DNA of 32,000 bases, taken from contig NC_017080.1 in assembly GCF_000284115.1 (NCBI RefSeq), forward strand, positions 1,440,001-1,472,000, given 5' to 3'. A model generated the notes under the pieces. It was not told where the DNA came from, ran no database searches, and saw nothing but the letters and a program-made list of their open reading frames with translations. Of the stretch, positions 1,379 to 29,405 are shown piece by piece (the stretch's first letter is position 1; each line of letters opens with the position of its first letter). This DNA is from Phycisphaera mikurensis NBRC 102666. GTDB taxonomy: Bacteria > Planctomycetota > Phycisphaerae > Phycisphaerales > Phycisphaeraceae. Position numbers and translations under genes: made by a program.

Positions 1379-1430
1379 GGCGCTACATGAGCCGCTCGCA
1401 CGGAAGCGCTCGGTGACCGCGCCTTTGAAC

Positions 1431-1568
1431 GAGCAGCGCTTCGCTTGAACACAGAGGGCACAGAGGCACAGAGGCACAGAGAGAGGCACAGGGCAAGGCG
1501 GAGAGAGTCCGCTCCCCCCTTGGGCCTCCGTGCCTCTTCTCCCTCCGTGTTTCAGAGAAGCGTTGCTC
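1431..1568. repeat. Intercistronic palindromic element, family A copy 1 (arms of tandem octamer CACAGAGG)
   Basis: Left end is GAGCAGCGCTTCGCTTGAACACAGAGGG followed by CACAGAGG units (1450-1489). The reverse complement of the right end reads GAGCAACGCTTCTCTGAAACACGGAGGG...AGAAGAGGCAC. It lies between the urtA stop and the urtBC start. Boundaries are approximate (+/- 5 nt). Confidence 0.75.
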
Positions 1569-1627
1569 GGGATCACACCGAGGTGCACACGCTTCTTGGG
1601 ATGATCTGAACTTCTGCCACCGGGTCC

Positions 1628-4600
1628 ATGCGCGACAGGGTCATGAGAGTTCACCTTCCGCTGCTCATGGCGACGCTCCTCGCCCTGCCGATCGGGGCGC
1701 AGGAGAATCCGCGGACCGTGGGGGTTTCGGGCGAAAAGGAGGCACGGTCCGCGGATCTGATCGTGGGGCCGGGCGTGGCCGAGGTGCCGGAGTCAGCGGC
1801 GGCGGTTCCCGAAGCGGAGGAAGAGCAAGCCGACGCGGTGGGGCGGGTGATCCTGGCGGCGGTGCCGGAGCTGGGGGAGCGGAAGACGGCCGAGGACGCG
1901 GTCGATCGGCTCATCGGTCTCAAGGACGTCCGCGTGAAGCGGCTGTTCGAGCGGCTGGTGGCCTCGGAGGTCTACGAGCGCGGCGACGAAGCCGGAATCG
2001 TGTGGGCACCGGTCATCGCCGACGCCGAGGACGGCTCCGGGATGCAAGCCAGCCTCTACCCGCTGCTCGCGGAGGGGGAGGCGGCGGCCTCGGAGGGGGA
2101 GACGGCGCTGCCGGCGGCACCGCCCTCCGCCGTGGTGCCCTTCGACGAGCTCAAACGCTTCCGCGTCTTCCGGCCGGCGCTCAACCGGATCCGCGATTCG
2201 CTGGCGCTCATCGGGCTCGAGCTCGACGACCCCGCCGAGCGGGAGCGGGCGGCGATCGACACCGGGAACAAGCGGCAGAGCGAGGCCGTCCCGCTGCTGG
2301 TCGAACTCGCGGAGGAGGACCCGGACGCCGGCGTCCGCCGGGCCGCGGCGGAGAGCCTCGCACTGATCCGGGCGTCCGGCGGCGACCCCGCCGCGACGCC
2401 CGGGCAGGTCGTCGCCGCCGTCGAGCAGATCGGGACGCTCAAGAGCATCCGCGGGCTGGACCTGCTCGACCGGCTGGCCGCCGACGAGGAAGCAACGCCG
2501 GCGGTGCGTTCCGCGGCCGCCGCCGCCGCGGCGCAGGTCCAGCGGCACATCACCGCCACCAACTGGATCAAGAACGCGTTCTTCGGGCTCTCGCTGGGCT
2601 CGATCCTCGTGCTGATGGCGCTGGGCCTGGCCATCACCTTCGGGCTGATGGGCGTCATCAACATGGCCCACGGCGAGATGCTGATGATCGGGGCGGTGGG
2701 CACCTGGGCCACGTTCACCTGCCTCTCCGGCGGGCAGCTGTTCTCCTGGCTCCCGGGGCTGGACACCGGCCTCTCGGCCGGCTGGCTCTACGCGGTCGCG
2801 CTGCCGGTGTCGTTCCTCGTCGCCGCCGCGGCGGGCTGGCTGGTGGAGGCGACGATCGTCCGCTTCCTCTACAAGCGGCCGCTGGACTCGCTGCTGGCGA
2901 CGATCGGCGTGAGCTTCGTGCTCATCCAGCTGGTGCGGAACTGGAAGGGCGACAACCTCCCGCTGGTGCGGCCGGCGTGGGCGGGCGGGTCGATCGAGCT
3001 GATGCAGGACGTGTCCTTCTCGACCGCCCGGCTGTTCATCATCGCCCTGTCGATCGCCTGCGTCGTCGCCGTCGCGGCGATCTTCCGGTTCACCAAGGCC
3101 GGCCTGCTGGTGCGGGCGACCTCGCAGAACCGGGACATGGCCCGGGCGCTCGGCGTGAACACCCGCCGGGTGGACGCGCTGACCTTTGCCTTCGGCTCGG
3201 GGCTCGCGGGCATCGCCGGCTACGGGCTGTACCTCATCGCGAGCGTCTCGCCGCAGATGGGCCAGGGCTACATCGTCGACAGCTTCCTGGTCGTCGTCGT
3301 CGGCGGCGTCGGCCAGCTCGCCGGCGTGGTGCTGAGCGGCTTCGGCATCGGCTTCGCCCAGAAGATGCTCGAGCCGCTGGAGCTGATCACCGAGCCCATC
3401 CGCCTCTTCGACGCGACGTGGGCGAACGTGGCGGTGCTCGCGGGCGTGGTGCTGTTCATCCAGCGGCGGCCCGGCGGGCTGTTCCCCGAGCGCGGCCGGC
3501 AGGCGAACCTGGCGACCGGCGACGAAGCGCCGTGGGCGTCGCGGCCGAGCGGGTGGACCGACGCGCTGATGATGTCGCTGCTGGTCGGCCTCGGCCTCGT
3601 GCTCGTGCCGATCCTCTACGGCAGCGGCACGCTGTCGATCGACGACGTGAACCGCTACGGCTACTTCGCCACCTACGCGATCTGCGCCGTCGGGCTCGAT
3701 CTCCTGTGGGGCTACGTCGGCGTGCTGAGCCTGTGCCAGTTCCTGTTCTTCGCCTTCGGGGCGTACGCGGCCGGCTTCTACCTCATCAACCACGGGCCGA
3801 AGATCAACGGCATCCCCGAGTGCCTGTACTACGTGATGAGCGGGACCGGCGACCTCACGGCCCCCGCGTACCTGTCGCTCTTTGAGAACGGCTTCGTCTC
3901 GCTGCTGCTCGCGCTGCTCATCCCCGGGGCGGTGGCGTTCGCGCTGGGCGTGGTGATGTTCCGCAGCCGGGTGAAGGGCGTGTACTTCGCCATCCTCACG
4001 CAGACCTTCACGGTGATCGCGCTCCGCGTGTTCCAGAAGAACGAGCTGGGGATGGGCGGCACCAACGGCATCCGCATCACCTTCACCGAGACGCTCTTCG
4101 GCCACCCGATCATGACCACCGAGGGGCTCGGCCCCTTCGAGCAGACCCGCTTCCGGCTGTACGCGATCTCGGTGGTCGCGCTGATCCTCTCGGTCGTCGT
4201 CGCGAAGCTGATCACCCGCTCCCGCTACGGCCGCGTGCTGCTGGCGATCCGCGACGACGAGACGCGGCTGCGCTTCGGCGGCTACCGGACGTGGTTGTTC
4301 AAGGCCGGCGTCTTCGCGGTCGCCGGCGTGATGGCCGGGCTCGGCGGGGCGCTGTACCTGCCGCAGAAGGGCATCATCACCCCCGGCGACATGGCTCCCT
4401 ACTGGTCCATCCTCGTCGTCGCCTGGGTCGCGGTCGGCGGCCGCGGCACGGTCTGGGGCGCCGTGATCGGCGCCATCGGCGTCTCGGCGATGTACGCGTG
4501 GATGACCTCGAACCACCCCGCCTACTGGATGTTCGCTTTGGGCGCCCTGTTCATCCTGACGCCGCTGCTCCTGCCCGGCGGGGTGATGAGCCTGCCGGCG

Positions 4601-4639
4601 ATGCTCGGTGGGCGGTTGCGGAAGGCGGGTGGGGCGTGA
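1628..4639 (+). CDS. urtBC: Fused urea ABC transporter permease UrtB-UrtC with N-terminal signal peptide and HEAT-like repeat domain
   Basis: Single uninterrupted 1003-aa frame. Residues 1-~310 carry a signal-like segment (MRVHLPLLMATLLALPIGAQ; the alternative ATG is at 1643) and a HEAT/PBS-lyase-like repeat (PLLVELAEEDPDAGVRRAAAESLALI). The middle part is UrtB/LivH-like (GLSLGSILVLMALGLAITFGLMGVINMAHGE ... VLFIQRRPGGLF). The last ~360 aa are UrtC/LivM-like (AICAVGLDLLWGYVGVLSLCQFLFFAFGAYAAGFYL). Confidence 0.85.
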   Translation: MRDRVMRVHLPLLMATLLALPIGAQENPRTVGVSGEKEARSADLIVGPGVAEVPESAAAVPEAEEEQADAVGRVILAAVPELGERKTAEDAVDRLIGLKDVRVKRLFERLVASEVYERGDEAGIVWAPVIADAEDGSGMQASLYPLLAEGEAAASEGETALPAAPPSAVVPFDELKRFRVFRPALNRIRDSLALIGLELDDPAERERAAIDTGNKRQSEAVPLLVELAEEDPDAGVRRAAAESLALIRASGGDPAATPGQVVAAVEQIGTLKSIRGLDLLDRLAADEEATPAVRSAAAAAAAQVQRHITATNWIKNAFFGLSLGSILVLMALGLAITFGLMGVINMAHGEMLMIGAVGTWATFTCLSGGQLFSWLPGLDTGLSAGWLYAVALPVSFLVAAAAGWLVEATIVRFLYKRPLDSLLATIGVSFVLIQLVRNWKGDNLPLVRPAWAGGSIELMQDVSFSTARLFIIALSIACVVAVAAIFRFTKAGLLVRATSQNRDMARALGVNTRRVDALTFAFGSGLAGIAGYGLYLIASVSPQMGQGYIVDSFLVVVVGGVGQLAGVVLSGFGIGFAQKMLEPLELITEPIRLFDATWANVAVLAGVVLFIQRRPGGLFPERGRQANLATGDEAPWASRPSGWTDALMMSLLVGLGLVLVPILYGSGTLSIDDVNRYGYFATYAICAVGLDLLWGYVGVLSLCQFLFFAFGAYAAGFYLINHGPKINGIPECLYYVMSGTGDLTAPAYLSLFENGFVSLLLALLIPGAVAFALGVVMFRSRVKGVYFAILTQTFTVIALRVFQKNELGMGGTNGIRITFTETLFGHPIMTTEGLGPFEQTRFRLYAISVVALILSVVVAKLITRSRYGRVLLAIRDDETRLRFGGYRTWLFKAGVFAVAGVMAGLGGALYLPQKGIITPGDMAPYWSILVVAWVAVGGRGTVWGAVIGAIGVSAMYAWMTSNHPAYWMFALGALFILTPLLLPGGVMSLPAMLGGRLRKAGGA

Positions 4640-4684: not shown

Positions 4685-4835
4685 GGGCACCGCTGCGCGG
4701 AACACGGAGGGCACGGAGGCACAGAGGCACGGAGAGAGGCACCGAGGTGGAGCGAGCGAGTTCCTGCTTGCCTCTGTGTCCTCCTCCGTGCCTCTGTGCC
4801 TCCTCTTCCTCTGTGATGGAGCGAAGCGACTGCCC
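4685..4835. repeat. Intercistronic palindromic element, family A copy 2
   Basis: Left end is GGGCACCGCTGCGCGGAACACGGAGGGCACGGAGGCACAGAGGCACGGAGAGAGGCAC. The reverse complement of the right end reads GGGCAGTCGCTTCGCTCCATCACAGAGGAAGAGGAGGCACAGAGGCACGGAGG. It lies between the urtBC stop (4639) and the urtD start (4857). The ORF-track extension 4608-4856 is read through this element. Confidence 0.8.
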
Positions 4836-7090: not shown

Positions 7091-7096
7091 TCCGCG

Positions 7097-7142
7097 CCGC
7101 GGACCGCGGGCGATCGGCGGCGACGCGGCCCGCGGTCCGCGG
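7097..7142. repeat. Inverted pair of the 13-mer CCGCGGACCGCGG / CCGCGGTCCGCGG (hairpin after the Uma2 stop)
   Basis: CCGCGGACCGCGGG at 7097-7110 and its complement CCCGCGGTCCGCGG at 7129-7142, separated by 18 nt. It starts 7 nt after the TGA at 7088-7090. Confidence 0.7.
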
Positions 7143-10968: not shown

Positions 10969-11297
10969 GCGATTGCGGACCATCGCCCACGGCCGCGGCC
11001 GCGGGCACACCCGGTGCGGCGGGCTCGCTTCGCCGCGGATCAAGAGGCGGGAGCGGCCCGGAGGCCCGCGGTCCGCGGATTTCGCTCCTGTCAGCTTGGC
11101 AGGCGCTCCCGGACGAGCCGGGGGGCTGGGCAGCGCCCCGGCGCCCTCACGGGGCCGCAGGAGGCTTCCGCGCGGCTCCACCGGCATGGCTCCCGAGCGG
11201 CACCGGCTTTGCACAAGCCCGGCGGTGGCGGCCGCTCCCCGCCCGCCGCCGACCCTTCCGGGTTCCACCACTCCACCCGCAACCTCAAGGAACAACC

Positions 11298-14776: not shown

Positions 14777-14786
14777 CGCCGGCCCG

Positions 14787-14832
14787 CCGCGGACCGCCGG
14801 CCCGGGCGACGCCCGCGGCCGGCGGTCCGCGG
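14787..14832 (+). terminator. Perfect 16-bp GC hairpin after radA (variant of the CCGCGGWCCGCGG motif)
   Basis: CCGCGGACCGCCGGCC (14787-14802) and GGCCGGCGGTCCGCGG (14817-14832) with a 14-nt loop. It starts 11 nt after the radA stop. There is no U-tract, so terminator function is an inference. Confidence 0.45.
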
Positions 14833-16294: not shown

Positions 16295-17536
16295 CTAGGG
16301 GGCGCGGCGATCGGGCCGCAGGGCGGCCCGAGCCTGCCGCAGCACCGCCCCGGCCACCCCGGGCCTGCCGCTCTCGGCCTCGGTGTCCCGGCGGATCATC
16401 TCGAGGGCTCCGGCGGGCAGCAGGCCCAGCCGGACCAGGTGCCCCGCGGCCTCCGCGCTGTCGTGAACGAGAAAGGCCGGCGTGCCGGCGGCGCGGGCCG
16501 CGGCGAGGTGGGCCTCGGCGTCGCGGTCGCGGCGGCTGCGTTGGCCCGCGTCGACGTCGCGGATCAGAACGGCGGCGATCCGCCCGGGCCGCTCGCGCAC
16601 CAGCCTCTCGTACAGGTGCGGATCGGCCTGGCCGCTGTCTCCGATGAGCAGGAAGGGCAGGCCGGGGAACGCATCCACCAGGTCGCGGGCCTTGTCGAGC
16701 TTGTGCGTGTGGCCGGGCCGCTTGATGAACTTCGACCGGTCCAGCCCCAGGTCCTGCAGCAGCAGCGGGCCCACGGGCAGCCGGTTGAGCCGGAGGAAGT
16801 CGGTGAGCAGGTCGTGGAGGTTCCAGGCGGAACTCGAGACGTAGAAGAAGGGCGCGGGTTCCTCTCCCGCCGCCTCGAGCGCGGCGTAGAGCGCGGCGAC
16901 CCCGGGCAGCGGCTTCCGCGTCCGAGCGTTGTGCAGGAAGGTCAGCCTCGCCGCGGTGAGCAGGTTGGTGATGCCGGTGTGGATCACCGTGTCGTCGAGG
17001 TCGGAGACGACGCCGAAGGGCGCTCGAAGACCCGGCCGGATCACCGGCAGCTCGCTCTCTACCGCCGCGCCGCGGACCGCGGCCTCCCGGGCGGGATCGA
17101 CGCCGCGGTCCGCGGCGCTGTCGGCGACGAGCAGGCGGGCGAGCCCCGCGTCCGCCTCCGGCGGCGGCGAGATCCGGAACCACGCGTAGCCCTCCTCGTC
17201 GGCGGTCACGCTCTGGGCCTGCGTGCCCAGCGTGGCGGTCACCTCCGCGTGCGGCACCTCCTGCGTGTCCCACCGCCGGTAGGTGTTCCGCAGGTTGTCC
17301 CACCAGCGATCCTTCTCGCGCGGCCCCCCGCCCAGCGGCGTCGCCAGCACGCGGCACCCGAAGACCGCTCGCGCCTCACCGCCCGCGGCCGCGTGGTGCG
17401 TGTTGTCCCACCCGGTGAAGGGGATCACCGACCGCGGCTTGCCACCGCCCAACGCCCGGCGGAACACGTTCCACCAGCGGTCCAGGGACGCCTCGAGCTC
17501 GTGGAGCCAGGCGTGGAGGAAGCGGGGGAGAGGCAT
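16295..17536 (-). CDS. App1-family (DUF2183) phosphatidate phosphatase-like protein
   Basis: ATG at 17536 (MPLPRFLHAW...). The DxDxT motif is VVSDLDDTVIHTG, and FFYVSSSAWNLHDLLTDFL ... PVGPLLLQDLG ... LLIGDSGQADP is typical of the App1 catalytic domain. The track ORF extension to 17671 reads through an octamer repeat and is rejected. Confidence 0.65.
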   Translation of the reverse strand: MPLPRFLHAWLHELEASLDRWWNVFRRALGGGKPRSVIPFTGWDNTHHAAAGGEARAVFGCRVLATPLGGGPREKDRWWDNLRNTYRRWDTQEVPHAEVTATLGTQAQSVTADEEGYAWFRISPPPEADAGLARLLVADSAADRGVDPAREAAVRGAAVESELPVIRPGLRAPFGVVSDLDDTVIHTGITNLLTAARLTFLHNARTRKPLPGVAALYAALEAAGEEPAPFFYVSSSAWNLHDLLTDFLRLNRLPVGPLLLQDLGLDRSKFIKRPGHTHKLDKARDLVDAFPGLPFLLIGDSGQADPHLYERLVRERPGRIAAVLIRDVDAGQRSRRDRDAEAHLAAARAAGTPAFLVHDSAEAAGHLVRLGLLPAGALEMIRRDTEAESGRPGVAGAVLRQARAALRPDRRAP

Positions 17537-17749
17537 GGCTGCGCCAGGCAAGCGGAGAAGCGGAGAAGCGAAGAAGCGAAGAAGCGGAGAAGCGAAGAAG
17601 CGGAGAAGCGGAGAAGCGAAGGAGTCGAGAGCGAAGAAGTCAGGCCGGATGCGGCGGCTGCGCCATCTCAAACGAGCTTGTCGCTGCTTCTGCTGGCTTC
17701 TTCGCTTCCGGACTTCCCGGCTTCTTCGCTCGATCCGCGCAGCGGACGC
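17532..17749. repeat. Intercistronic palindromic element, family B copy 1, with 9 tandem octamers AAGCGRAG (17550-17621)
   Basis: The left terminus is GGCATGGCTGCGCCAGGCAAGCGGAGAAGCGG... The reverse complement of the right terminus reads GCGTCCGCTGCGCGGATCGAGCGAAGAAGCC... The arms are unequal. The element fills the whole gap between the glyQS stop (17750-17752) and the App1-like start (17534-17536). Confidence 0.8.
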
Positions 17750-19318
17750 TCAACACCCCTTCTCCGCCAGGAACGCCGCCACCCGATCGATTCCCACCCT
17801 CTCCTGCTGGGTCGTGTCGCGGTCGCGGATCGTGACGACGTTGTTCTCGAGGGTGTCACCGTCGACGGCGATGCAGAAGGGCGTGCCGATCTCGTCCATG
17901 CGGGCGTAACGCTTGCCGATGGTCTGCTTGGCGTCGTACTCGCAGGCGAACCTCTGGCGGAGCTCCATGTAGAGCTTGTGGGCGACCTCGGGCATCCCGT
18001 CCTTGTTCACGAGCGGGAAGACGCCGGCCTTCACCGGGGCGAACTTCGGCTTGAACTTCATGACGTAGTCCGAGCCGGATCGCTCGGGGCTCGGCGTGAA
18101 GGCCTCGCAGAGCAGCACGAGGACGGCCCGCGTGAGGCCGCTGGCGGGCTCGATGACGTGCGGCGTGTAGCGCGACCGCTCCTTGATCTCGTCCTTGCCG
18201 ACGCCCTCGGCTTTGAGCCGCAGCTGCAGCTCCTGGTCGAAGTAGTCGAGCTTCGCGTTGCTGGCGCGGGTGTGCGCCGTCAGGTCGAAGTTGCCGCGGT
18301 GCGCCACGCCCTCGAGCTCGCCGAAGCCCGGGGCGGTGAAGGGGTAGCGGTACTCGACGTCGACGCAGGCGGACGAGTAGTGGGCCAGCTCGTCGGACCC
18401 GTGGTCCCGGAAGCGCAGGTTCGCTTGGTCGATGCCCAGCGACTCCCACCAGCGCATCCGCTCGTGCTTCCAGAAGTCGTACCACTTGGGCGCCTCCTCC
18501 TCGCTGCAGAACCACTCCATCTCCATCTGCTCGAACTCGCGGGAGCGGAAGATGAAGTTCCGCGGCGTGACCTCGTTGCGGAAGCTCTTGCCGATCTGCG
18601 CGATCCCGAAGGGCACCTTCACCCGCATCGTGTTCAGCACGTTGAGGTAGTTGAGGAAGATGCCCTGCGCGGTCTCGGGCCGCAGGTAGGCCTTGTTCTC
18701 CTCGTTGCGGATGACACCGGGGTAGGTGTCGAGCATGAGGTTGAACTCACGCGGCGGGGTGAGCGTGCCGGCCTTGTCGGTGTCGGGGGCGACGATGGTG
18801 CCGTAGAGCGACTCGTCCACCTGGCTGAGGTTCTTCACCTCGCCGTCGTCGATCGTGACGCCGGCTTTCCTCAGCTTCTTCGCGATGGCGTCGGGCTTGT
18901 TCTCGGGGAAGGCCCAGGCTCCTCTGCCCTCGACGAAGAGCACCTCGACCTGGTCCTGCCGGTACCGGCCGTTGGTCTCGCGGCAGTCGACCATCGGATC
19001 GCTGAAGCCGCCGACGTGGCCGGAGGCCTCCCACACCTTCGGGTTCTGGATGATCGCCGAGTCCAGCCCGAGCACCGAGAGCGGCTCGCCGGAGTCGGGA
19101 TCCAGCGGCGGGCACTCCACCGTCTGGTGCCACCAGTGGTCGCGGACGTGGTTCTTCAGCGCCGTCCCCAGCGGGCCGTAGTCCCAGAAGCCGTTGATGC
19201 CGCCGTAGATCTCCGAGGCGGGAAAGACGAAGCCGCGCCGCTTGCAGAGCGACACGAGCGCCTCCATCGAGCGGGCGGCGTCGGCGGGCGGGGTCGGTCG
19301 CTGGGCGGGGGCGGTCAT
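17750..19318 (-). CDS. glyQS: Glycine--tRNA ligase (homodimeric class II GlyQS type)
   Basis: ATG at 19318 (MTAPAQRP...). Motifs: LCKRRGFVFPASEIYGGINGFWDYGPLG, IAQIGKSFRNEVTPRNFIFRSREFEQMEMEWF, and an anticodon-binding C-terminus. Confidence 0.95.
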   Translation of the reverse strand: MTAPAQRPTPPADAARSMEALVSLCKRRGFVFPASEIYGGINGFWDYGPLGTALKNHVRDHWWHQTVECPPLDPDSGEPLSVLGLDSAIIQNPKVWEASGHVGGFSDPMVDCRETNGRYRQDQVEVLFVEGRGAWAFPENKPDAIAKKLRKAGVTIDDGEVKNLSQVDESLYGTIVAPDTDKAGTLTPPREFNLMLDTYPGVIRNEENKAYLRPETAQGIFLNYLNVLNTMRVKVPFGIAQIGKSFRNEVTPRNFIFRSREFEQMEMEWFCSEEEAPKWYDFWKHERMRWWESLGIDQANLRFRDHGSDELAHYSSACVDVEYRYPFTAPGFGELEGVAHRGNFDLTAHTRASNAKLDYFDQELQLRLKAEGVGKDEIKERSRYTPHVIEPASGLTRAVLVLLCEAFTPSPERSGSDYVMKFKPKFAPVKAGVFPLVNKDGMPEVAHKLYMELRQRFACEYDAKQTIGKRYARMDEIGTPFCIAVDGDTLENNVVTIRDRDTTQQERVGIDRVAAFLAEKGC

Positions 19319-22458: not shown

Positions 22459-22542
22459 GCCCGCGTGGCGGAATTGGCAGACGCGCCGTCTTCAGGTGGC
22501 GGTTCCTTCACCGGAGTACAGGTTCGACTCCTGTCGCGGGCA
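22459..22542 (+). tRNA. tRNA-Leu (anticodon CAG)
   Basis: Manual cloverleaf: acceptor GCCCGCG/CGCGGGC, D-arm GCGGAATTGGCAGACGC, anticodon stem CCGTC/GGCGG with loop TTCAGGT, a long variable arm, T-arm ACAGG-TTCGACT-CCTGT, discriminator A. No CCA is encoded. Confidence 0.92.
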
Positions 22543-22615
22543 TACGAGACGGCCCGGCACGTGGTGCCGGGCGGTCGCGTGCGCCGAGCGCGGCGGGGTA
22601 CGCTGCGGGCTCGCC

Positions 22616-22699
22616 GCGGGCGTGGCGGAACTGGCAGACGCGCGAGATTTAGGTTCTCGTTCCAGCGATGGAGTGCAGGTTCGATCCCTGTCGCCCGCA
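22616..22699 (+). tRNA. tRNA-Leu (anticodon TAG)
   Basis: Acceptor GCGGGCG/CGCCCGC, D-arm GCGGAACTGGCAGACGC, anticodon stem CGAGA/TCTCG with loop TTTAGGT, a long variable arm, and a T-loop TTCGATC. Confidence 0.92.
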
Positions 22700-22806
22700 A
22701 GCACCTCCGGGGCCCCCCGCGTGTGGAGGCGGACGCGCCGCTGCGGGTGCGGGGCGGTGCCTGCGGGCCGTGCGGCGCTTCGCTAGAGTGGCCGCCCAGC
22801 GACTGA

Positions 22807-22879
22807 GGCCAGATAGCTCAGTTGGTAGAGCACAGCATTGAAAATGCTGGGGTCGCCGGTTCGAGCCCGGCTCTGGCCA
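22807..22879 (+). tRNA. tRNA-Phe (anticodon GAA)
   Basis: GGCCAGATAGCTCAGTTGGTAGAGCACAGCATTGAAAATGCTGGGGTCGCCGGTTCGAGCCCGGCTCTGGCCA folds as a canonical 73-nt cloverleaf with anticodon loop TTGAAAA. Confidence 0.95.
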
Positions 22880-23009: not shown

Positions 23010-23861
23010 ATGGCCGCCCCCGCACCCGCTTCCTCTTTTGCCACGCGGCTCGCCGCCGCCGTCGATCGACGCGGTGGCGCCGCCTGCGTCGGGCTCGATC
23101 CGGTCCTCGAGAAGGTCCCCCACCGCAACGGCGGCGACCCGGTGGCCGCCATCGAGGCCTTCAGCCTCCGCGTCGTCGAGGCCGTCGCGGGCCTGGTCCC
23201 CGCGGTGAAGCTCCAGATGGCCTGCTTCGAGCGGTACGGGAGCCGGGGTGTCGCGGCCGCCGAGCGGGTGCTCGGGGCGGCCGGGGAGGCGGAGCTGCTG
23301 ACCATCGCCGACGCCAAGCGCGGCGACATCGGCGTGTCCGCCGCGCACTACGCCGCGGCCTTCACCGCCGGGCCCCTCGCCGCCGACGCGGTGACCGTCA
23401 GCCCCTACCTGGGCTTCGACACGCTCGTGCCCTTCCGGGAGGCGGCCGCCGCGGCGGGCACCGGCGTGTTCGTGCTCGTGCGGACGAGCAACCCCGGCGG
23501 CGACGACCTGCAGTCGCTGCGGACGCCCGGCGGCGGCGTTGCGGAGGTCGTCGCGGCCGGCATCGAGCGGATGAACGGCGGGCTCCAAGCGGGCGAGGCC
23601 TACGGGCCGGTGGGCGCCGTGGTCGGTGCCACGCGGCCGGCGGTGGCCGAGGCGCTGCGGGTCCGGATGCCGCGGTCGATCCTGCTCGTGCCCGGCATCG
23701 GAGCCCAGGGCGGCGACCCCGCGGCGCTTTCGGCCCTCTTCGACGCGAGAGGCCACGGGGCGCTGCTCACCGCGAGCCGGTCGGTCATCTACGCCGAAGA
23801 CCCCGCCGAGGGCGCACGGCGGCTGGTGGCCGCCGCCGCGCAGGCCGCGGACCGCGGCTGA
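23010..23861 (+). CDS. pyrF: Orotidine 5'-phosphate decarboxylase (type 2)
   Basis: Motifs: ACVGLDP, AVKLQMACFERYG, TIADAKRGDIGVSAAHYA, DAVTVSPYLG, VFVLVRTSNPG, VPGIGAQGG. Confidence 0.9.
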   Translation: MAAPAPASSFATRLAAAVDRRGGAACVGLDPVLEKVPHRNGGDPVAAIEAFSLRVVEAVAGLVPAVKLQMACFERYGSRGVAAAERVLGAAGEAELLTIADAKRGDIGVSAAHYAAAFTAGPLAADAVTVSPYLGFDTLVPFREAAAAAGTGVFVLVRTSNPGGDDLQSLRTPGGGVAEVVAAGIERMNGGLQAGEAYGPVGAVVGATRPAVAEALRVRMPRSILLVPGIGAQGGDPAALSALFDARGHGALLTASRSVIYAEDPAEGARRLVAAAAQAADRG

Positions 23862-23892
23862 ATCGGCCCGGCGCGGCCCCCGATCCGCGGTT

Positions 23893-25897: not shown

Positions 25898-27612
25898 TCG
25901 GCCCTCAGCGCCTCCACCGGGTCCTCGGCCGACGCCCGCAGCGCCGGCACCACCGCACCCAGCACGCTGGAGACCACCGCGCCCAGCGCGATCAGCACCA
26001 CCTCGGCGGCGTCCAGGTTCGTGGGGATCGTGTCGAAGAAGTAGGTCTTGGGGTCCCACATCACGAAGCGGTACGCGGCGTTGAGCCGCTGGGCGTACCC
26101 CCCGCGGAAGAGCACGAGCCCCAGCGCCGGGAGGAAGAGCAGCAGCGCCCCGCCGGGCACCAGCCGCCGCAGCCACCACGCCATCGCCTGGCGGACGAAG
26201 CCGATCGCCACCGCCAGCGTCCCGCCCGCCGCGGCCCCGACCCCCAGCGCCCCCACGAGCAGCCCGGTGACGCCCAGGTACGTCGCGAGGAAGTGCTGGA
26301 TCGCGTTGAGCTGCAGCACGACCGCGACCGCCAGCGCCACGCCCGCGGCCGCCCCGACCACACCCACCGCCAGGCCGTAGCCCAGGAACAGCCCGAGGAC
26401 GCCCGAGCGGGCCGCCCCGATGGCGCGGAGCACGCCGATGTCGCGGGTCTTGGCGAGCACGATCATGTAGAAGGTCGTCGCGACCATCACCACGGCCACG
26501 CCGCTGATGACGACGAACAAGAAGGTGACCATGCCCTTCTCGTTCTGCACCGCGCCGATGAGCTGGCCGTGCATCTCGACCCAGGTGTAGGTGAGCGGGG
26601 GCACCCCGGCGTCCCGCTCGCGGCGGAGCGCATCCCAATGGTCCCCGACGAGCTCGGCGACGCGGCGGCGTGCCCCGCCGAGCTCGGCGTCGTCGTCGGT
26701 GTCGATCGCGTCGGCGAGCTTCACGATCACCTGCGTCACGCGGCCGGACACCCGCACCCGCTCGCCGCCGAGCCCGGTCAGCGGGTCGAAGCCGGCGACG
26801 CCCTCGAACGGGGCCATCTGCAGGGCCCGCTGCAGCACGCCCAGCGGCACCATGACCGTGCCGGAGTCCACCTCGTACAGCCCGCTCTTGAAGTCGTTGG
26901 CGACCGCCAGCGGCACGCGGACCGGCTCGTAGCTGCCCGGCGTGCCGCGCTCGTTGAGCGGGACGAGCGTGAGCGTGAATTCGCGACCGACCCAGCTGGT
27001 GCCGAAGCCGTACACGCCCGCGTCGTCGCGCCGGTTCCCGCCGTGGACCTCCACCCCGGTGATCGCGCCGGCCACCGGCGCGGGCGCGTCCGCGGTCGCC
27101 GGACCCGGGTCGGTCGGGAAGGGCGGGTCCAGCGCCCCGCCGAGCCCCGCCGGCGCCGGCGGCTCGTAGAAGCCGTATGAAGCGAGTTCCTCCCGCCGCT
27201 GCTGGACCTCCTCCTCGCTCCAGACCAGCCGCTCCTCCAGCCCCACCACCTCGTCGAAGGCGGGGAAGTCGACGCCTTGGACCTGCACGGGCTTGAAGAC
27301 GCCGCCGAGGTTCAGCAGCCCGAACCAGCGGATCGAAGGCGTCGCGCTCGCGACGATCTCGTCCTCCTCCAGCGCCTCGATCAGCCCCTCGTACCCGCTG
27401 AAACCGCCGTAGGGGTTGTACGCCTCGATCACCAGGTCGCCGGTGATCGCGTGGGCCGCCCGCTTCAGCTCCGTCAGGAACCCGCCCATCACCGAGATGA
27501 CGATGATCACCATCGCCGTGCACAGCGTCACCGCCAGCGCCGCCAGCAGCGGCGCGAGCTGGCGGCGGAGGTAGGCGAAGATGAGGGCGAGGAGGTACAT
27601 GGGGCGGGGCAT
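25894..27612 (-). CDS. ABC transporter permease, FtsX/MacB/LolC-E family with large extracytoplasmic domain
   Basis: 572 aa. The N-terminal TM is LAPLLAALAVTLCTAMVIIVISVMGGF, followed by a ~280-aa loop. The C-terminal FtsX-type module is VVISGVAVVMVATTFYMIVLAKTRDIGVLRAIGAARSGVLGLFLGYG. The ATG at 27612 lies inside the terminus of a repeat element; the second Met at 27600 (MYLLALIF) is an alternative start. Confidence 0.8.
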   Translation of the reverse strand: MPRPMYLLALIFAYLRRQLAPLLAALAVTLCTAMVIIVISVMGGFLTELKRAAHAITGDLVIEAYNPYGGFSGYEGLIEALEEDEIVASATPSIRWFGLLNLGGVFKPVQVQGVDFPAFDEVVGLEERLVWSEEEVQQRREELASYGFYEPPAPAGLGGALDPPFPTDPGPATADAPAPVAGAITGVEVHGGNRRDDAGVYGFGTSWVGREFTLTLVPLNERGTPGSYEPVRVPLAVANDFKSGLYEVDSGTVMVPLGVLQRALQMAPFEGVAGFDPLTGLGGERVRVSGRVTQVIVKLADAIDTDDDAELGGARRRVAELVGDHWDALRRERDAGVPPLTYTWVEMHGQLIGAVQNEKGMVTFLFVVISGVAVVMVATTFYMIVLAKTRDIGVLRAIGAARSGVLGLFLGYGLAVGVVGAAAGVALAVAVVLQLNAIQHFLATYLGVTGLLVGALGVGAAAGGTLAVAIGFVRQAMAWWLRRLVPGGALLLFLPALGLVLFRGGYAQRLNAAYRFVMWDPKTYFFDTIPTNLDAAEVVLIALGAVVSSVLGAVVPALRASAEDPVEALRAE

Positions 27613-27786
27613 CCGCTGCGCGGATCAAGCAAAGAAGCGAGGAAGCGAAGAAGAGGGAGAGTCAGACAAGCCGTCGGGGCTTCGCCTGCCACACCGAGGA
27701 GACGCTACCGGTGCCGACTGCTTCACTTGCTGACTTCTTCGCTTCTTCGCTTCTCCGCTTCCTCGCTCGATCCGCGCAGCGGATGC
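27609..27786. repeat. Intercistronic palindromic element, family B copy 2
   Basis: The left end is GCATCCGCTGCGCGGATCAAGCAAAGAAGCGAGGAAGCGAAGAAG. The reverse complement of the right end reads GCATCCGCTGCGCGGATCGAGCGAGGAAGCGGAGAAGCGAAGAAGCGAAGAAG. It overlaps the last 64 nt of lysS and the permease start codon. Confidence 0.85.
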
Positions 27787-29405
27787 GTCCCCACCGGCTT
27801 CATCAGCGGAAACGCCAGTACATCCCGGATCGAGCTCTTGTTCGTCAGCAGCATCACCAGGCGGTCGATGCCGATGCCCAGGCCGCCGGCGGGCGGCATG
27901 CCGACCTTCAGGGCGTCGAGGAAGTCCAGGTCCAGGTTGCGGAAGGTGTTCTCCTCCGCATCGCCGCCGAGCTGCTCGCGGAAGTTCGCTTCCTGCACGT
28001 CGGGGTCGTTGAGCTCGGTGTAGGCGTTGGCGAGCTCCATGCCGGCGACGAACAGCTCGAAGCGCTCGGCGATCGTCGGGTCGTCGGGCTTCCGCTTCGT
28101 CAGCGGGCACAGGCTGGCGGGGTACTCCACGACGAAGGTCGGCTGGATGAGGTGCTTCTCGACGGTCTCCTCCCACAGCGCGTTGAGCAGCACGTCGGGG
28201 TGGACGCCGCCGGTCTGCAGGCCCAGGGCTCTGGCCTTGGCCAGGACGCGGGCGGCGCCCTTCTCGCCGCGGGCGTCCCAGCCGTTGTGCTCGGCGAAGA
28301 GGTCGTGGTAGCTCGCCCGGCGGAAGGCGCCGAAGTCGATCTCGTGGTCGCCGTAGGGCCGCTTCAGCGAGCCGAGCACCTCGCCGGCGAGGTGCTCGAC
28401 GAGGCCCTGGGTGTGGTGGAGGATGCTTTCGAGGTCGCCGTAGGCCTCGTAGAGCTCGAGCATCGTGAACTCGGGGTTGTGGCTGCGGTCCACGCCCTCG
28501 TTGCGGAAGTTGCGGTTGATCTCGAAGACCCTCGGCAGGCCGCCCACGAGCAGGCGCTTGAGGTACAGCTCCGGGGCGATCCGCAGGAACAGCTCCAGGT
28601 CCAGCGCGTTGTGGTGGGTGACGAAGGGCCGGGCCGCGGCGCCGCCGGGCACGGGCTGCATCATCGGGGTCTCGACCTCGAGGAAGCCGCGGCCCTCGAA
28701 GAAGTCGCGGGTCGCCTTGATGAGCCTCGACCGCGTCTGCAGCGTCGCGAGGCCCTCGGGGTTGCTCCAGAGGTCGACGTGCCGGCGCCGGTACCGCTGC
28801 TCGGGATCGGTGAGGCCGTGGAACTTGCCCGGCGGGAGCGCGAGGCTCTTGGTGAGCAGGCGGAAGGTGAGCCCGCCGGTGGGGTCCTCCCGGTGCTCGA
28901 TGCCGACGGAGGACGCGTCCGGATCGGCGGAGGGGTCGCCGCCGGGCCCGGCCCAGACCGTCACCTCGCCGGTCTTGGTCTGCGCCAGCGGACCCCGCGC
29001 CGCGACGAGGTCCGCGAGGTCGACCAGCTTCGCGACCTTGAAGGCCTCCGGCCCGACCGCCTTCTTCGAGACCGCCACCTGCAGGTCCACCCCGGAGTGG
29101 TCCCGCAGCGACAGGAAGAGCAGGTTGCCCATCAGCCGCTGCTGCACCACGCGGCCCGCGACGGCGACGATCGGCCGGTCGTCGCCGGAGGCGGGATCCT
29201 CCTTGAACCAGCGATCGGCCTCGGCGTCGTACAGCGCCCGGGCGGCGGCGAGCGAGACGAGCCCGTCCTGCCGCGTGCCGAAGGGGTCGATCCCGTGCTC
29301 GCTCCGGAGCTTGTCGAGCTTGGCCCGCCGGGCGGCCAGCAGCTCCTCGGTGGAAGCGGAGGAGGCGTTGGGCGGCGGAGCGGTTCTCGGGGGGTCGGGG
29401 TTCAT
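27723..29405 (-). CDS. lysS: Lysine--tRNA ligase (class II)
   Basis: 560 aa with ATG at 29405. Class II motifs: FLEVETPMMQ, LYLRIAPELYLKRLLVGG-like (FLRIAPELYLKRLLVGGL), VFEINRNFRNEG, GGLGIGIDRLVMLL. The C-terminal ~21 aa after FPLMKP are encoded by the repeat element. Confidence 0.95.
   Translation of the reverse strand: MNPDPPRTAPPPNASSASTEELLAARRAKLDKLRSEHGIDPFGTRQDGLVSLAAARALYDAEADRWFKEDPASGDDRPIVAVAGRVVQQRLMGNLLFLSLRDHSGVDLQVAVSKKAVGPEAFKVAKLVDLADLVAARGPLAQTKTGEVTVWAGPGGDPSADPDASSVGIEHREDPTGGLTFRLLTKSLALPPGKFHGLTDPEQRYRRRHVDLWSNPEGLATLQTRSRLIKATRDFFEGRGFLEVETPMMQPVPGGAAARPFVTHHNALDLELFLRIAPELYLKRLLVGGLPRVFEINRNFRNEGVDRSHNPEFTMLELYEAYGDLESILHHTQGLVEHLAGEVLGSLKRPYGDHEIDFGAFRRASYHDLFAEHNGWDARGEKGAARVLAKARALGLQTGGVHPDVLLNALWEETVEKHLIQPTFVVEYPASLCPLTKRKPDDPTIAERFELFVAGMELANAYTELNDPDVQEANFREQLGGDAEENTFRNLDLDFLDALKVGMPPAGGLGIGIDRLVMLLTNKSSIRDVLAFPLMKPVGTHPLRGSSEEAEKRRSEEVSK

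What the first reader, a model, noticed from the sequence alone, without database searches (positions are those of the whole stretch)
4685..4701. Families A and B share the same outer terminus but have different octamer arms, a modular repeat superfamily
The outer end of A copy 2 (GGGCAC-CGCTGCGCGGA, 4685-4701) is nearly identical to that of B copy 2 (GGGCATCCGCTGCGCGGA, 27607-27624). The right ends of both B copies carry the same CCGCTGCGCGGATCGAGCGA core, while the left end of B copy 1 keeps only GGCAT and GCTGCGC. Inside this terminus the two families diverge completely, to (CACRGAGG)n versus (GAAGCGRA)n, yet both use an 8-nt period. A conserved terminus with interchangeable microsatellite-like arms is not the architecture of classical REP, ERIC or Correia elements as I know them. 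It suggests that one trans-acting recognition activity (transposase, nuclease or RNA-binding protein) acts on the termini. No such gene is present in this window.
Basis: seen in the sequence. Interest (0 to 1): 0.75.

Follow-up and report, generated by a model that had tools for sequence, protein, structure and literature searches.

The report
Modular foldback repeats with hairpin caps
The flagged 17 bases are a small GC-rich hairpin "cap" at the end of one of many non-coding foldback repeats in Phycisphaera mikurensis, built from interchangeable modules (cap, 8-base tandem-repeat arms, apex) that also turn up in distant bacterial phyla and match no repeat or RNA family I could find.

Summary
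The exact 12-mer CCGCTGCGCGGA occurs four times in the window (0.04 expected). Every copy sits at the outer edge of an A- or B-type hairpin, and a fifth copy lies 2 kb upstream.

The source is Phycisphaera mikurensis. It carries 8 such elements in 49 kb, all intergenic. All have a purine-rich 5' arm and a pyrimidine-rich 3' arm. Relatives show none in 64 kb, and in them urtBC and urtD overlap where A2 now sits.

The "conserved terminus, interchangeable arms" reading is only partly right, because the modularity runs both ways.
- The cap bounds unrelated palindromic elements in at least six phyla.
- The A-type arm (CACRGAGG)n occurs in more than 120 metagenome contigs and 47 predicted viral contigs, almost always without that cap.
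- An orthologous hisF-hisA spacer shows arms changing unit sequence in situ, array-wide, while the outer flank stays the same.

The arm types also share a CGRAG core at 8-nt phase.

I found no transposase, no GTAG/CGTC tag, no Rfam family and no literature match.

Best reading: an undescribed class of REPIN/MITE-like foldback repeats whose arms evolve like microsatellites. How they spread and what they do remain inferred.

The parts
4685..4701 (.). The finding itself: the left cap of element A2. GGGCA + CCGC-TGC-GCGG + A, a 4-bp GC stem with a TGC loop. The opposite strand reads CCGC-GCA-GCGG.
   Evidence: The exact 12-mer is at 4690-4701.
4685..4835 (.). Element A2. Cap, then a 5' arm of degenerate CACRGAGG octamers (4703-4747), a 23-nt loop, a 3' arm of CCTCYGTG (4771-4815), and a non-matching right end ATGGAGCGAAGCGACTGCC of the A1 type. 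It lies between urtBC (stop 4637-4639) and urtD (ATG 4857).
   Evidence: I13; DNA fold -53.5 kcal/mol, z -7.6. Relatives have a 4-nt (Algisphaera: 1-nt) urtBC/urtD overlap at this site.
1430..1569 (.). Element A1. Ends are CGAGCAGCGCTTCGCTTGAA / TTTCAGAGAAGCGTTGCTCG with no CCGCTGCGCGGA. The 5' arm is 1447-1491 and the 3' arm 1521-1553. It lies between urtA and urtBC.
   Evidence: D13, I5; I2; z -6.7. It shares the arm irregularities of A2 (an extra G after unit 1, GAGAGAGG in unit 4), so the two are true copies.
17534..17749 (.). Element B1. Left cap variant TGGC-TGC-GCCA (17536-17546), a long 5' arm (AAGCGRAG)n 17550-17639, an internal GCGGCGGCTGCGCC module 17651-17664, a short 3' arm 17691-17730 and a right cap TCCGCGCAGCGGA at 17734-17746. 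It directly follows the proS stop codon (17750-17752, minus strand).
   Evidence: (RNA fold z -3.6; arms are unequal at 90 vs 40 nt).
27607..27790 (.). Element B2. It has both caps (27613-27624 and 27771-27782), arms at 27627-27665 and 27730-27768, and a 64-nt centre. It lies between lysS and a MacB/FtsX-like permease gene, both on the minus strand.
   Evidence: I2, 57-nt arms 82% complementary; RNA fold -130.8 kcal/mol, z -11.4.

Best explanation
The 17-mer is the outer 'cap' of a foldback repeat. The window comes from Phycisphaera mikurensis. Its intergenic spacers hold many 140-270-nt imperfect palindromes assembled from a small set of modules:
- a GC-rich mini-hairpin (CCGC-TGC-GCGG, or GGC-TGC-GCC), placed at the outer ends or at the apex;
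- arms made of degenerate tandem octamers, always purine-rich on the 5' side and pyrimidine-rich on the 3' side;
- short inner spacers and an apex.

Shown: they are non-coding additions that close relatives lack. Copies are related by descent (A1/A2 and B1/B2 share non-repeat irregularities). The same arm type and the same cap each occur, independently of one another, in distant phyla. Arm units turn over in situ across a whole array while the flanks stay put.

Inferred: the elements spread as selfish REPIN/MITE-like DNA, either through an enzyme that recognises hairpin ends or through template switching at hairpins. The arms evolve by replication slippage with concerted evolution, under selection to keep pairing, which is why one end can carry different arms. 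The cap serves as a very stable nucleation point or clamp that fixes the register of otherwise slippery arms, and possibly as the recognition site. When transcribed inside operons (urtA-urtBC-urtD, proS, lysS) they form very stable RNA hairpins that the cell tolerates. I suggest the purine-first polarity is kept because the C-rich arm then emerges only after its partner and is never exposed.
For: Cap enrichment:
- 4 exact 12-mers versus 0.04 expected, all at arm boundaries, plus a fifth in the flank.
- 9 of 18 TGC/GCA mini-hairpins with a stem of at least 4 bp in 49 kb lie in or directly abut elements that occupy about 3% of the sequence.

Density and lineage specificity:
- 8 elements in 49 kb.
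- None in 64 kb from four relatives whose UrtBC is 62-79% identical. In all four, urtBC and urtD overlap where A2 now sits.

Copy relationship:
- A1 and A2 share arm irregularities.
- B1 and B2 share TCGAGCGARGAAGC and the inner CAGCA...GCAG tail.
- Cross-family shared 12-mers: 5 pairs versus 1.45 expected, reached by 18 of 1000 controls, and they sit at matching positions.

Hairpin strength: z -11.4, -7.6, -6.7 and -3.6.

Polarity: 8 of 8 are purine-first. Among metagenome copies of the A arm the count is 50 to 5.

Breadth:
- The cap pair bounds palindromic elements in Streptomyces, Bacteroidia, Gemmataceae, Tepidisphaeraceae, Alphaproteobacteria, Puniceicoccales and Acidobacteriota. Two or three of these have 7-nt tandem arms (L116, L134, L118).
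- The A arm is in more than 120 metagenome loci and 47 viral loci. One of the metagenome loci is probably Vicinamibacterales, from one named HisF hit at 87% identity.
- Two viral copies have CCGC-GCA-GCGG or CCGC-GAA-GCGG at the apex.

In-situ arm turnover and presence/absence: L198, L282 (identical to L284) and L283 at the hisF-hisA spacer.

In several families homology starts exactly at CCGC while the outside flank varies.
Against: - No transposase, Y1/HUH enzyme or recombinase was found in 49 kb of P. mikurensis, nor between distant cap pairs in other genomes.
- No target-site duplication is visible at any copy.
- Only about a third of element ends carry the exact cap.
- The cross-phylum recurrence of the cap was found with a pattern that demanded it. 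I could not run control 12-mers, so convergence on a stable hairpin is not excluded.
- A handful of the 52 hits look like chance (L106, L110, L120, L151).
- Mobility is inferred from absence in relatives that are only 62-79% identical, not from strain-level polymorphism.
- There are no expression data.
Confidence: 0.55

Rival explanations
1. These are host-functional RNA structures. Intercistronic or 3'-UTR hairpins that stabilise upstream mRNA segments, serve as RNase III processing sites, or bring a stop codon and the next start codon together. They would be selected for function rather than spreading selfishly.
For: - All 8 are intergenic and most lie between co-directional genes.
- The RNA folds are very stable.
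- Metagenome copies mostly start 10-40 nt after a stop codon.
- The purine-first polarity is a single-strand property.
- The MacB-like start codon lies 0-10 nt after B2 and the urtD start 21 nt after A2.
Against: - They are dispensable. They are absent at orthologous sites in relatives and in L283.
- Arm lengths are grossly unequal (B1 90 vs 40 nt, and B3).
- They disrupt gene ends: lysS reads 26 codons into B2, and the ancestral urtBC/urtD overlap is lost.
- 9 of 64 metagenome copies lie between divergent genes.
- No Rfam family matches.
Confidence: 0.22
2. No dedicated machinery is involved. The hairpins arise and grow locally through replication slippage and template switching at quasi-palindromes. 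The shared 12-mer and the shared arm types are convergent outcomes: an unusually stable GNA-triloop mini-hairpin, and slippage-prone purine-rich units.
For: - Arm unit turnover in situ.
- Unequal arms.
- Many different 7-9-nt tandem modules in the same contigs.
- Apex mini-hairpins use GCA, GAA, TGC or TTC loops, which points to structure rather than sequence being what matters.
- B1's left cap keeps the hairpin with a changed stem.
- From my own knowledge, d(GC-GNA-GC) mini-hairpins are exceptionally stable.
Against: - A1/A2 and B1/B2 share non-repeat irregularities at different loci, so sequence has been copied between sites.
- Bacteroidia elements share a 25-nt inverted end around completely different interiors.
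- An exact 23-mer of the A arm recurs across phyla and in viral contigs.
Confidence: 0.18
3. The match between the A2 and B2 ends is a chance coincidence of GC-rich words.
For: The genome is about 72% G+C, and shared 10-mers between random segments are common (control, mean 13.8).
Against: - 4 exact 12-mers versus 0.04 expected, all at arm boundaries.
- A fifth copy caps another arm.
- The same motif bounds palindromes in many genomes.
- 100 unrelated viral occurrences of the 15-mer carry no arms.
Confidence: 0.02

Closest known systems
REP / BIME elements and REPINs (REP doublets forming hairpins, mobilised by RAYT tyrosine transposases)
   Same: High-copy extragenic palindromes. Small GC-rich hairpin units occur in inverted pairs that can fold into a larger hairpin. 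Composition is mosaic (BIME). They sit mostly between co-directional or convergent genes and are lineage-specific in abundance. A true GTAG-tagged REPIN family exists in a related Tepidisphaeraceae MAG, and one copy there encloses an octamer-armed hairpin.
   Different: No GTAG or CGTC tag next to the cap. The cap stem is only 4-6 bp, against 5-13 bp (GTAG) or 8-9 bp (CGTC) for those families (PMC3733652). 100-190 nt of tandem-octamer arms lie between the caps instead of a short spacer. No RAYT gene was found.
Bacterial MITEs (Correia/NEMIS, ERIC/IRU, RPE and others)
   Same: Size of 100-300 nt, terminal inverted repeats, intergenic, transcribed with neighbouring genes, sometimes extending ORFs (lysS here, as with Rickettsia RPE).
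   Different: No target-site duplication is seen and no parent insertion sequence with the same ends is known. The arms are tandem short-period repeats rather than unique sequence. Both the ends and the arms recombine into different combinations.
Eukaryotic Foldback (FB) transposons of Drosophila and similar elements (own knowledge)
   Same: Long inverted arms built from short tandem repeats, arm lengths that vary between copies, and a conserved outermost end.
   Different: Different domain of life and scale (kilobases versus about 200 nt). FB elements can carry coding sequence. No evolutionary link is implied.
Short tandem intergenic heptamers: cyanobacterial STRR sequences (own knowledge) and TAACTGA repeats of Beggiatoaceae, Cyanobacteria and Bacteroidetes (PMC4679880)
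   Same: 7-8-nt tandem units in intergenic DNA, with a patchy cross-phylum distribution and no known spreading mechanism.
   Different: Those are direct arrays, not paired into foldback arms and not capped by a mini-hairpin.
Acido-Lenti-1 RNA motif (Rfam RF01687)
   Same: In one Acidobacteriota MAG the cap CCGCUGCGCGG forms the second hairpin of inverted Acido-Lenti-1 copies.
   Different: The family consensus for that hairpin is GUgC-CUUCG-GcAC, and its main signal is another hairpin that the window lacks. There is no hit in the window, even at E <= 10.

Membership tests
REP (GTAG- or CGTC-tagged) / REPIN | A conserved unpaired GTAG or CGTC tetranucleotide at one foot of the hairpin | tested here: not met
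   The 5' flanks of the five caps are GGGCA, GGGCAT, GACGCAT, GAGCGT and GGGGAT. The 3' flanks are AACA, ATCA, ATCG, ATCG and AGGC. There is no common tag. Definition taken from PMC3733652.
REP (GTAG- or CGTC-tagged) / REPIN | A short imperfect palindrome, high copy number, extragenic | tested here: met
   Five exact caps in 49 kb, all intergenic. The stem is 4-6 bp, at the low end of or below the published ranges.
REP (GTAG- or CGTC-tagged) / REPIN | An associated RAYT (Y1 transposase) gene flanked by the repeats | not testable with these tools
   None among the genes of the 49 kb. The rest of the genome could not be fetched, since the source genome is absent from genome contigs and from the plasmid collection.
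REP (GTAG- or CGTC-tagged) / REPIN | Two REPs in inverted orientation that fold together | tested here: met
   B2 carries both caps 146 nt apart and folds at -130.8 kcal/mol. The other copies have one cap or a variant.
MITE | Terminal inverted repeats and a size of 100-400 nt | tested here: met
   arms of 29-57 nt at 72-86% complementarity; elements of 130-270 nt.
MITE | Target-site duplication flanking the element | tested here: inconclusive
   No direct repeat is evident at the A1, A2, B1 or B2 boundaries. The empty site in relatives is too diverged to define exact junctions.
MITE | A parent insertion sequence with the same ends that encodes a transposase | tested here: not met
   Distant cap pairs in L108, L114 and L146 enclose housekeeping genes (PNP, NlpC/P60, ribonucleotide reductase). 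None is present in the window.
Intrinsic (Rho-independent) terminator | A GC-rich hairpin followed by a run of T | tested here: not met
   None of the 13 distinct terminator-like sites in the window coincides with A1, A2, B1 or B2.
Any Rfam RNA family | A score at or above the family's gathering threshold | tested here: not met
   Only 3 tRNAs in the window. Relaxed scans of A2 and B2 give generic miRNA-precursor hairpin matches far below threshold. No hit falls on the A-arm hairpins in 20 metagenome loci.

The most novel reading that the evidence does not exclude
The cap and the tandem-repeat arms belong to a cross-phylum, horizontally spreading class of prokaryotic foldback transposons. An as yet unidentified enzyme that recognises the CCGC-TGC-GCGG (GNA-triloop) hairpin end would mobilise them. 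Phage-like contigs would act as vehicles, and arm arrays would serve as reiterated binding sites. This would be the first bacterial counterpart of eukaryotic Foldback elements.
Probability: 0.2. Interest if true: 0.85.

Novelty: new variant of a known kind. Interest (0 to 1): 0.62.

Why it matters
If this reading is right, some Planctomycetota, Acidobacteriota and other environmental bacteria carry an abundant class of intergenic repeats that I could not find described. In this class a stable mini-hairpin and microsatellite-like arms combine freely. That would give three things:
- a natural system for studying how long palindromes are created, kept paired and tolerated inside operons;
- a probable cause of assembly breaks and mis-called gene ends in these genomes (lysS and the permease start here);
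- a concrete handle, the 12-mer cap, for hunting the enzyme or host factor that acts on hairpin ends.

The hisF-hisA example shows concerted evolution of hairpin arms directly, which is rarely documented in bacteria.

Tried and rejected
1. Orientation relative to transcription. I first scored 8 of 8 elements as 'purine-rich arm first in the direction of the flanking genes'. This is an artefact, because a palindrome reads the same way on both strands. The metagenome control showed 21 (+,+) against 21 (-,-) contexts. Only the strand-symmetric polarity class (purine-first versus pyrimidine-first) is real.
2. Shared 10-mers between families as evidence of modules. These are not significant in this GC-rich DNA: 7 observed against a control mean of 13.8. 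Only 12-mers and longer, with matching positions, carry weight.
3. Start codon of the APP1-like gene flush with B1. I dropped this because another palindrome (17065-17115) lies inside the supposed N-terminus, so the start at 17536 is doubtful.
4. Known families. Rfam, sequence strings in the literature and concept searches gave no match. GTAG/CGTC REPs were rejected for lack of the tag.
5. More of the source genome. It is absent from genome contigs (B2 should have matched). BLAST of B2 against plasmids found nothing. The plasmid accessions I guessed are not held.
6. An autonomous element between distant caps: only housekeeping genes.
7. Intrinsic terminators: no overlap with the elements.
8. 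The cap as part of a group II intron. One hit (L125) lies in domain IV of an ORF-less intron, but this is an isolated case.
9. B-type arm in viral contigs. There are three hits. None is a capped hairpin, and two look like coding sequence.

Full report
**What is at the site.** Positions 4685-4701 read GGGCACCGCTGCGCGGA, and 27607-27624 read GGGCATCCGCTGCGCGGA. The shared core CCGCTGCGCGGA is a mini-hairpin: CCGC, a TGC loop, then GCGG. It occurs exactly four times in the window (4690, 17734 minus strand, 27613, 27771 minus strand) against 0.04 expected, and no shuffle reached four. Each copy sits at the outer edge of a tandem-octamer arm. Tandem Repeats Finder confirms period 8 for both arm types. 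The B1 left end, TGGC-TGC-GCCA, keeps the hairpin and its loop with a changed stem. As a negative control, 100 occurrences of the 15-mer TCCGCTGCGCGGATC in unrelated viral contigs have no such arms.

**Source and context.** The window is identical to contig JACHEL010000003.1 of assembly GCA_014207395.1. A database name for the UrtB protein identifies the organism as Phycisphaera mikurensis.
- A1 lies between urtA and a fused urtBC gene, and A2 between urtBC and urtD.
- B1 follows the proS stop codon.
- B2 lies between lysS and a MacB/FtsX-like permease gene.
- The lysS reading frame runs 26 codons into the B2 arm before it reaches a stop.

Fetching 17 kb of flanks revealed four more elements:
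- B3, with a long (GAAGYGRA)n arm and the exact cap.
- C1, with (AAGAGACG)n arms and a CGGC-TGC-GCCG end.
- C2, with (GAAGAGAC)n and (AG)n arms and a GGCGGC-GCA-GCCGCC apex.
- D1, with CACGGATG-type arms.

That makes eight elements in 49 kb, all intergenic. They fold strongly: B2 RNA at -130.8 kcal/mol with z -11.4, and A2 and A1 as DNA with z -7.6 and -6.7. Half of all TGC/GCA mini-hairpins with a stem of at least 4 bp in the 49 kb lie in or directly abut these elements, which occupy about 3% of the sequence.

**They are added DNA, and copies are related.** Four relatives have UrtBC 79, 70, 67 and 62% identical to the window's; the last is Algisphaera agarilytica. In all four, urtBC and urtD overlap by 1-4 nt, whereas P. 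mikurensis has a 217-nt spacer holding A2. No comparable foldback element occurs in 64 kb of their DNA. A1 and A2 share irregularities of the arm (an extra G after the first unit, GAGAGAGG in the fourth). B1 and B2 share non-repeat stretches. Sequence has therefore been copied between loci. Between families, 12-mers or longer are shared by five pairs against 1.45 expected (18 of 1000 controls reach five). These shared stretches sit at matching positions: the cap at the outer end, GGCGCAGCCGCCGC at the centre of B1 and C2, and GAAGTCAGCAAG at the inner end of the purine arm of B2 and C2.

**A correction to my own analysis.** I first thought all eight elements were oriented with the purine-rich arm first relative to transcription. 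That is meaningless for a palindrome, which reads the same on both strands, and the metagenome sample confirmed there is no orientation bias. What is real is a polarity class: all eight elements are 5'-purine-rich and 3'-pyrimidine-rich. Among metagenome copies of the A arm the count is 50 purine-first to 5 pyrimidine-first. This is a property of the single strand, RNA or DNA. My suggestion is an inference only: a C-rich arm that emerges second is immediately paired and so never offers a Rho loading site.

**The cap elsewhere.** I scanned one genome per species for CCGCTGCGCGGA, then 125-185 nt, then TCCGCGCAGCGG. This returned 52 loci. A few look like chance (L106, L110, L120, L151). The rest are palindromic elements:
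- a large Streptomyces family, some of whose members carry TGCCGC-TGC-GCGGCA at the apex;
- a Bacteroidia family with a 25-nt inverted end around completely different interiors;
- Gemmataceae and Tepidisphaeraceae elements whose arms are tandem heptamers (AAATCCG, AAATTCG);
- alphaproteobacterial, Puniceicoccales and Acidobacteriota hairpins in which the lower stem differs while CCGC-TGC-GCGG is kept.

In most families homology begins exactly at CCGC and the outside flank varies, as at a transposon end. Because the pattern demanded the motif and I could not run control motifs, I cannot say how much of this is common recognition and how much is convergence on a very stable hairpin. From my own knowledge, the complementary strand reads GC-GCA-GC, a GNA triloop of the kind known to give exceptionally stable DNA mini-hairpins. 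The folding tool, which has no special term for such loops, gives both strands -5 kcal/mol.

- Most hits are hairpins of the form TTCAC-(CACRGAGG)n-variable loop-(CCTCYGTG)n-GTGAA, with other short inverted flanks as well (TGAAC, TTAAC, TCTCA). Sometimes they sit inside much longer palindromes.
- The cap is essentially absent from these loci: three occurrences in 694 kb, one of them next to another tandem arm.
- Two viral copies have GCGCCGC-GCA-GCGGCGC or GCGCCGC-GAA-GCGGCGC at the apex, and three metagenome/viral copies (L194, L232, L303) have GC-only mini-hairpins with TGC/GCA or TTC loops; a sixth (L266) has a GAG/CTC loop, which is not of the GNA class.
- The same contigs carry other tandem modules, including CACGGATGG, which resembles D1.
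- One locus is probably from Vicinamibacterales (Acidobacteriota). This rests on a single named HisF hit at 87% identity.
- The hairpins usually start 10-40 nt after a stop codon.

Modularity therefore runs in both directions. The same cap goes with many arms, and the same arm goes with many outer ends.

**How different arms can share one end.** The hisF-hisA spacer of four related contigs, whose HisF is about 89% identical to that of L198, is decisive.
- L283 has a 10-nt spacer and no hairpin.
- L198 has arms CACGGAGT/CACGGCAG on one side and three units of CCTCTGTG on the other.
- L282 and L284 have CACGGAAT/CACGGAAG and three units of TTTCCGTG.
- In the three contigs that carry the hairpin, the outer flank GACGRACGGGCCACGG ... 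CCGTGGCT(T)CGTACGT is the same.

Whole arrays have switched unit sequence in place. This is what slippage with concerted evolution does, while the flank stayed and pairing was roughly kept. The grossly unequal arms of B1 (90 versus 40 nt) and B3 point the same way. Read in phase from the cap, the P. mikurensis units are CGGAGGCA (A), CGGAGAAG (B), CGAAGAGA (C) and CGGATGAA (D). They share a core, and I read them as diverged arrays of one element type rather than unrelated cassettes.

**What it is not.**
- No Rfam family reaches threshold in the window or on the A-arm hairpins of 20 metagenome loci.
- Relaxed scans give only generic long-hairpin (miRNA precursor) matches.
- The Acido-Lenti-1 motif uses the cap as its second hairpin in one acidobacterial MAG, but that is not the family consensus.
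- There is no GTAG or CGTC tag, so these are not the REP superfamilies of PMC3733652. A genuine GTAG-tagged REPIN family does exist in a Tepidisphaeraceae MAG, and one copy of it encloses an octamer-armed hairpin.
- No hairpin-plus-T-run terminator coincides with any element.
- No transposase was found in the 49 kb or between distant caps in other genomes.
- No paper in the searchable library contains the cap or arm sequences in this context.

**Verdict.** There is a modular superfamily and it is much wider than the window, but the cap is one optional module rather than the universal recognition end. Different arms on one end are explained at least in part by in-situ array turnover.

I commit to a selfish REPIN/MITE-like foldback repeat class with microsatellite-like arms (confidence 0.55). 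A host RNA function (0.22) and enzyme-free local generation (0.18) are the live rivals. I class it as a new variant of a known kind. The most novel reading, a cross-phylum prokaryotic foldback transposon with a hairpin-end-specific enzyme, is not excluded (about 0.2).

Noticed in passing
window 7092-7142, 11028-11078, 14782-14832, 17065-17115, 23840-23890; L155 1279-1420: A second, unrelated palindromic repeat family: about 51 nt with ends GCCGCGGACCGCGG ... CCGCGGTCCGCGG and a variable centre. There are five copies in the window and a double copy in the flank, mostly just after gene ends. It resembles REP elements or terminators without a T run.
   Followed up: partly
window 27723-27803 (minus strand): The lysS reading frame continues about 26 codons past the end of the conserved synthetase domain, through the B2 cap and purine-rich arm (...HPLRGSSEEAEKRRSEEVSK*). 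The element has apparently replaced the original stop codon.
   Followed up: partly
window 1628-4639: urtB and urtC are fused into one gene of about 1000 aa with N-terminal HEAT repeats. The fusion is shared with Algisphaera, Tepidisphaeraceae and many Planctomycetota MAGs.
   Followed up: no
window 17536 / 16295-17536 (minus strand): The longest ATG-started ORF for the APP1-like phosphatase starts inside the B1 left cap. However, the Pfam domain begins only at residue 174, and a CCGCGGACCGCGG palindrome lies inside the supposed N-terminus. The true start is probably about 450 nt further downstream.
   Followed up: no
window 22459-22879: A cluster of three tRNA genes. The first two are 74% identical long-arm tRNAs 157 nt apart.
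   Followed up: no
L161 13916-14467, 15339-15478, 7365-7545: A Tepidisphaeraceae MAG carries REPIN-like inverted pairs of GT(A/G)G-CATGGGCG-TCTC-GCCCATG hairpins inside the urtD-urtE spacer. These are classical GTAG-tagged REPs. One pair encloses an (AAGACGCC)n-armed hairpin.
   Followed up: partly
L112, L138, L146, L148, L127, L109 (Bacteroidia MAGs): The same inverted end of about 25 nt, TTTACCGCTGCGCGGAACGCTTC, encloses interiors of 130-160 nt that are unrelated to one another. The outer flanks are T-rich, often just after a terminator-like hairpin.
   Followed up: partly
L125 1984-2671 (minus strand): In a Cyanobium genome the cap pair forms the closing stem of a region of about 200 nt between the D1-D4 and D5-D6 parts of an apparently ORF-less group II intron.
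   Followed up: no
L114 5183-5600: In one Streptomyces genome, half-elements ending in GCTCCGCGCAGCGG are repeated head to tail five times at about 100-nt spacing.
   Followed up: no
L209 9446-9530; L172; L186; L297: Some A-arm hairpins contain a second, inner foldback made of other tandem units, such as ATTTGCG heptamers or AGGAGTT/AGTAGGA units. The palindromes are built in concentric layers.
   Followed up: no
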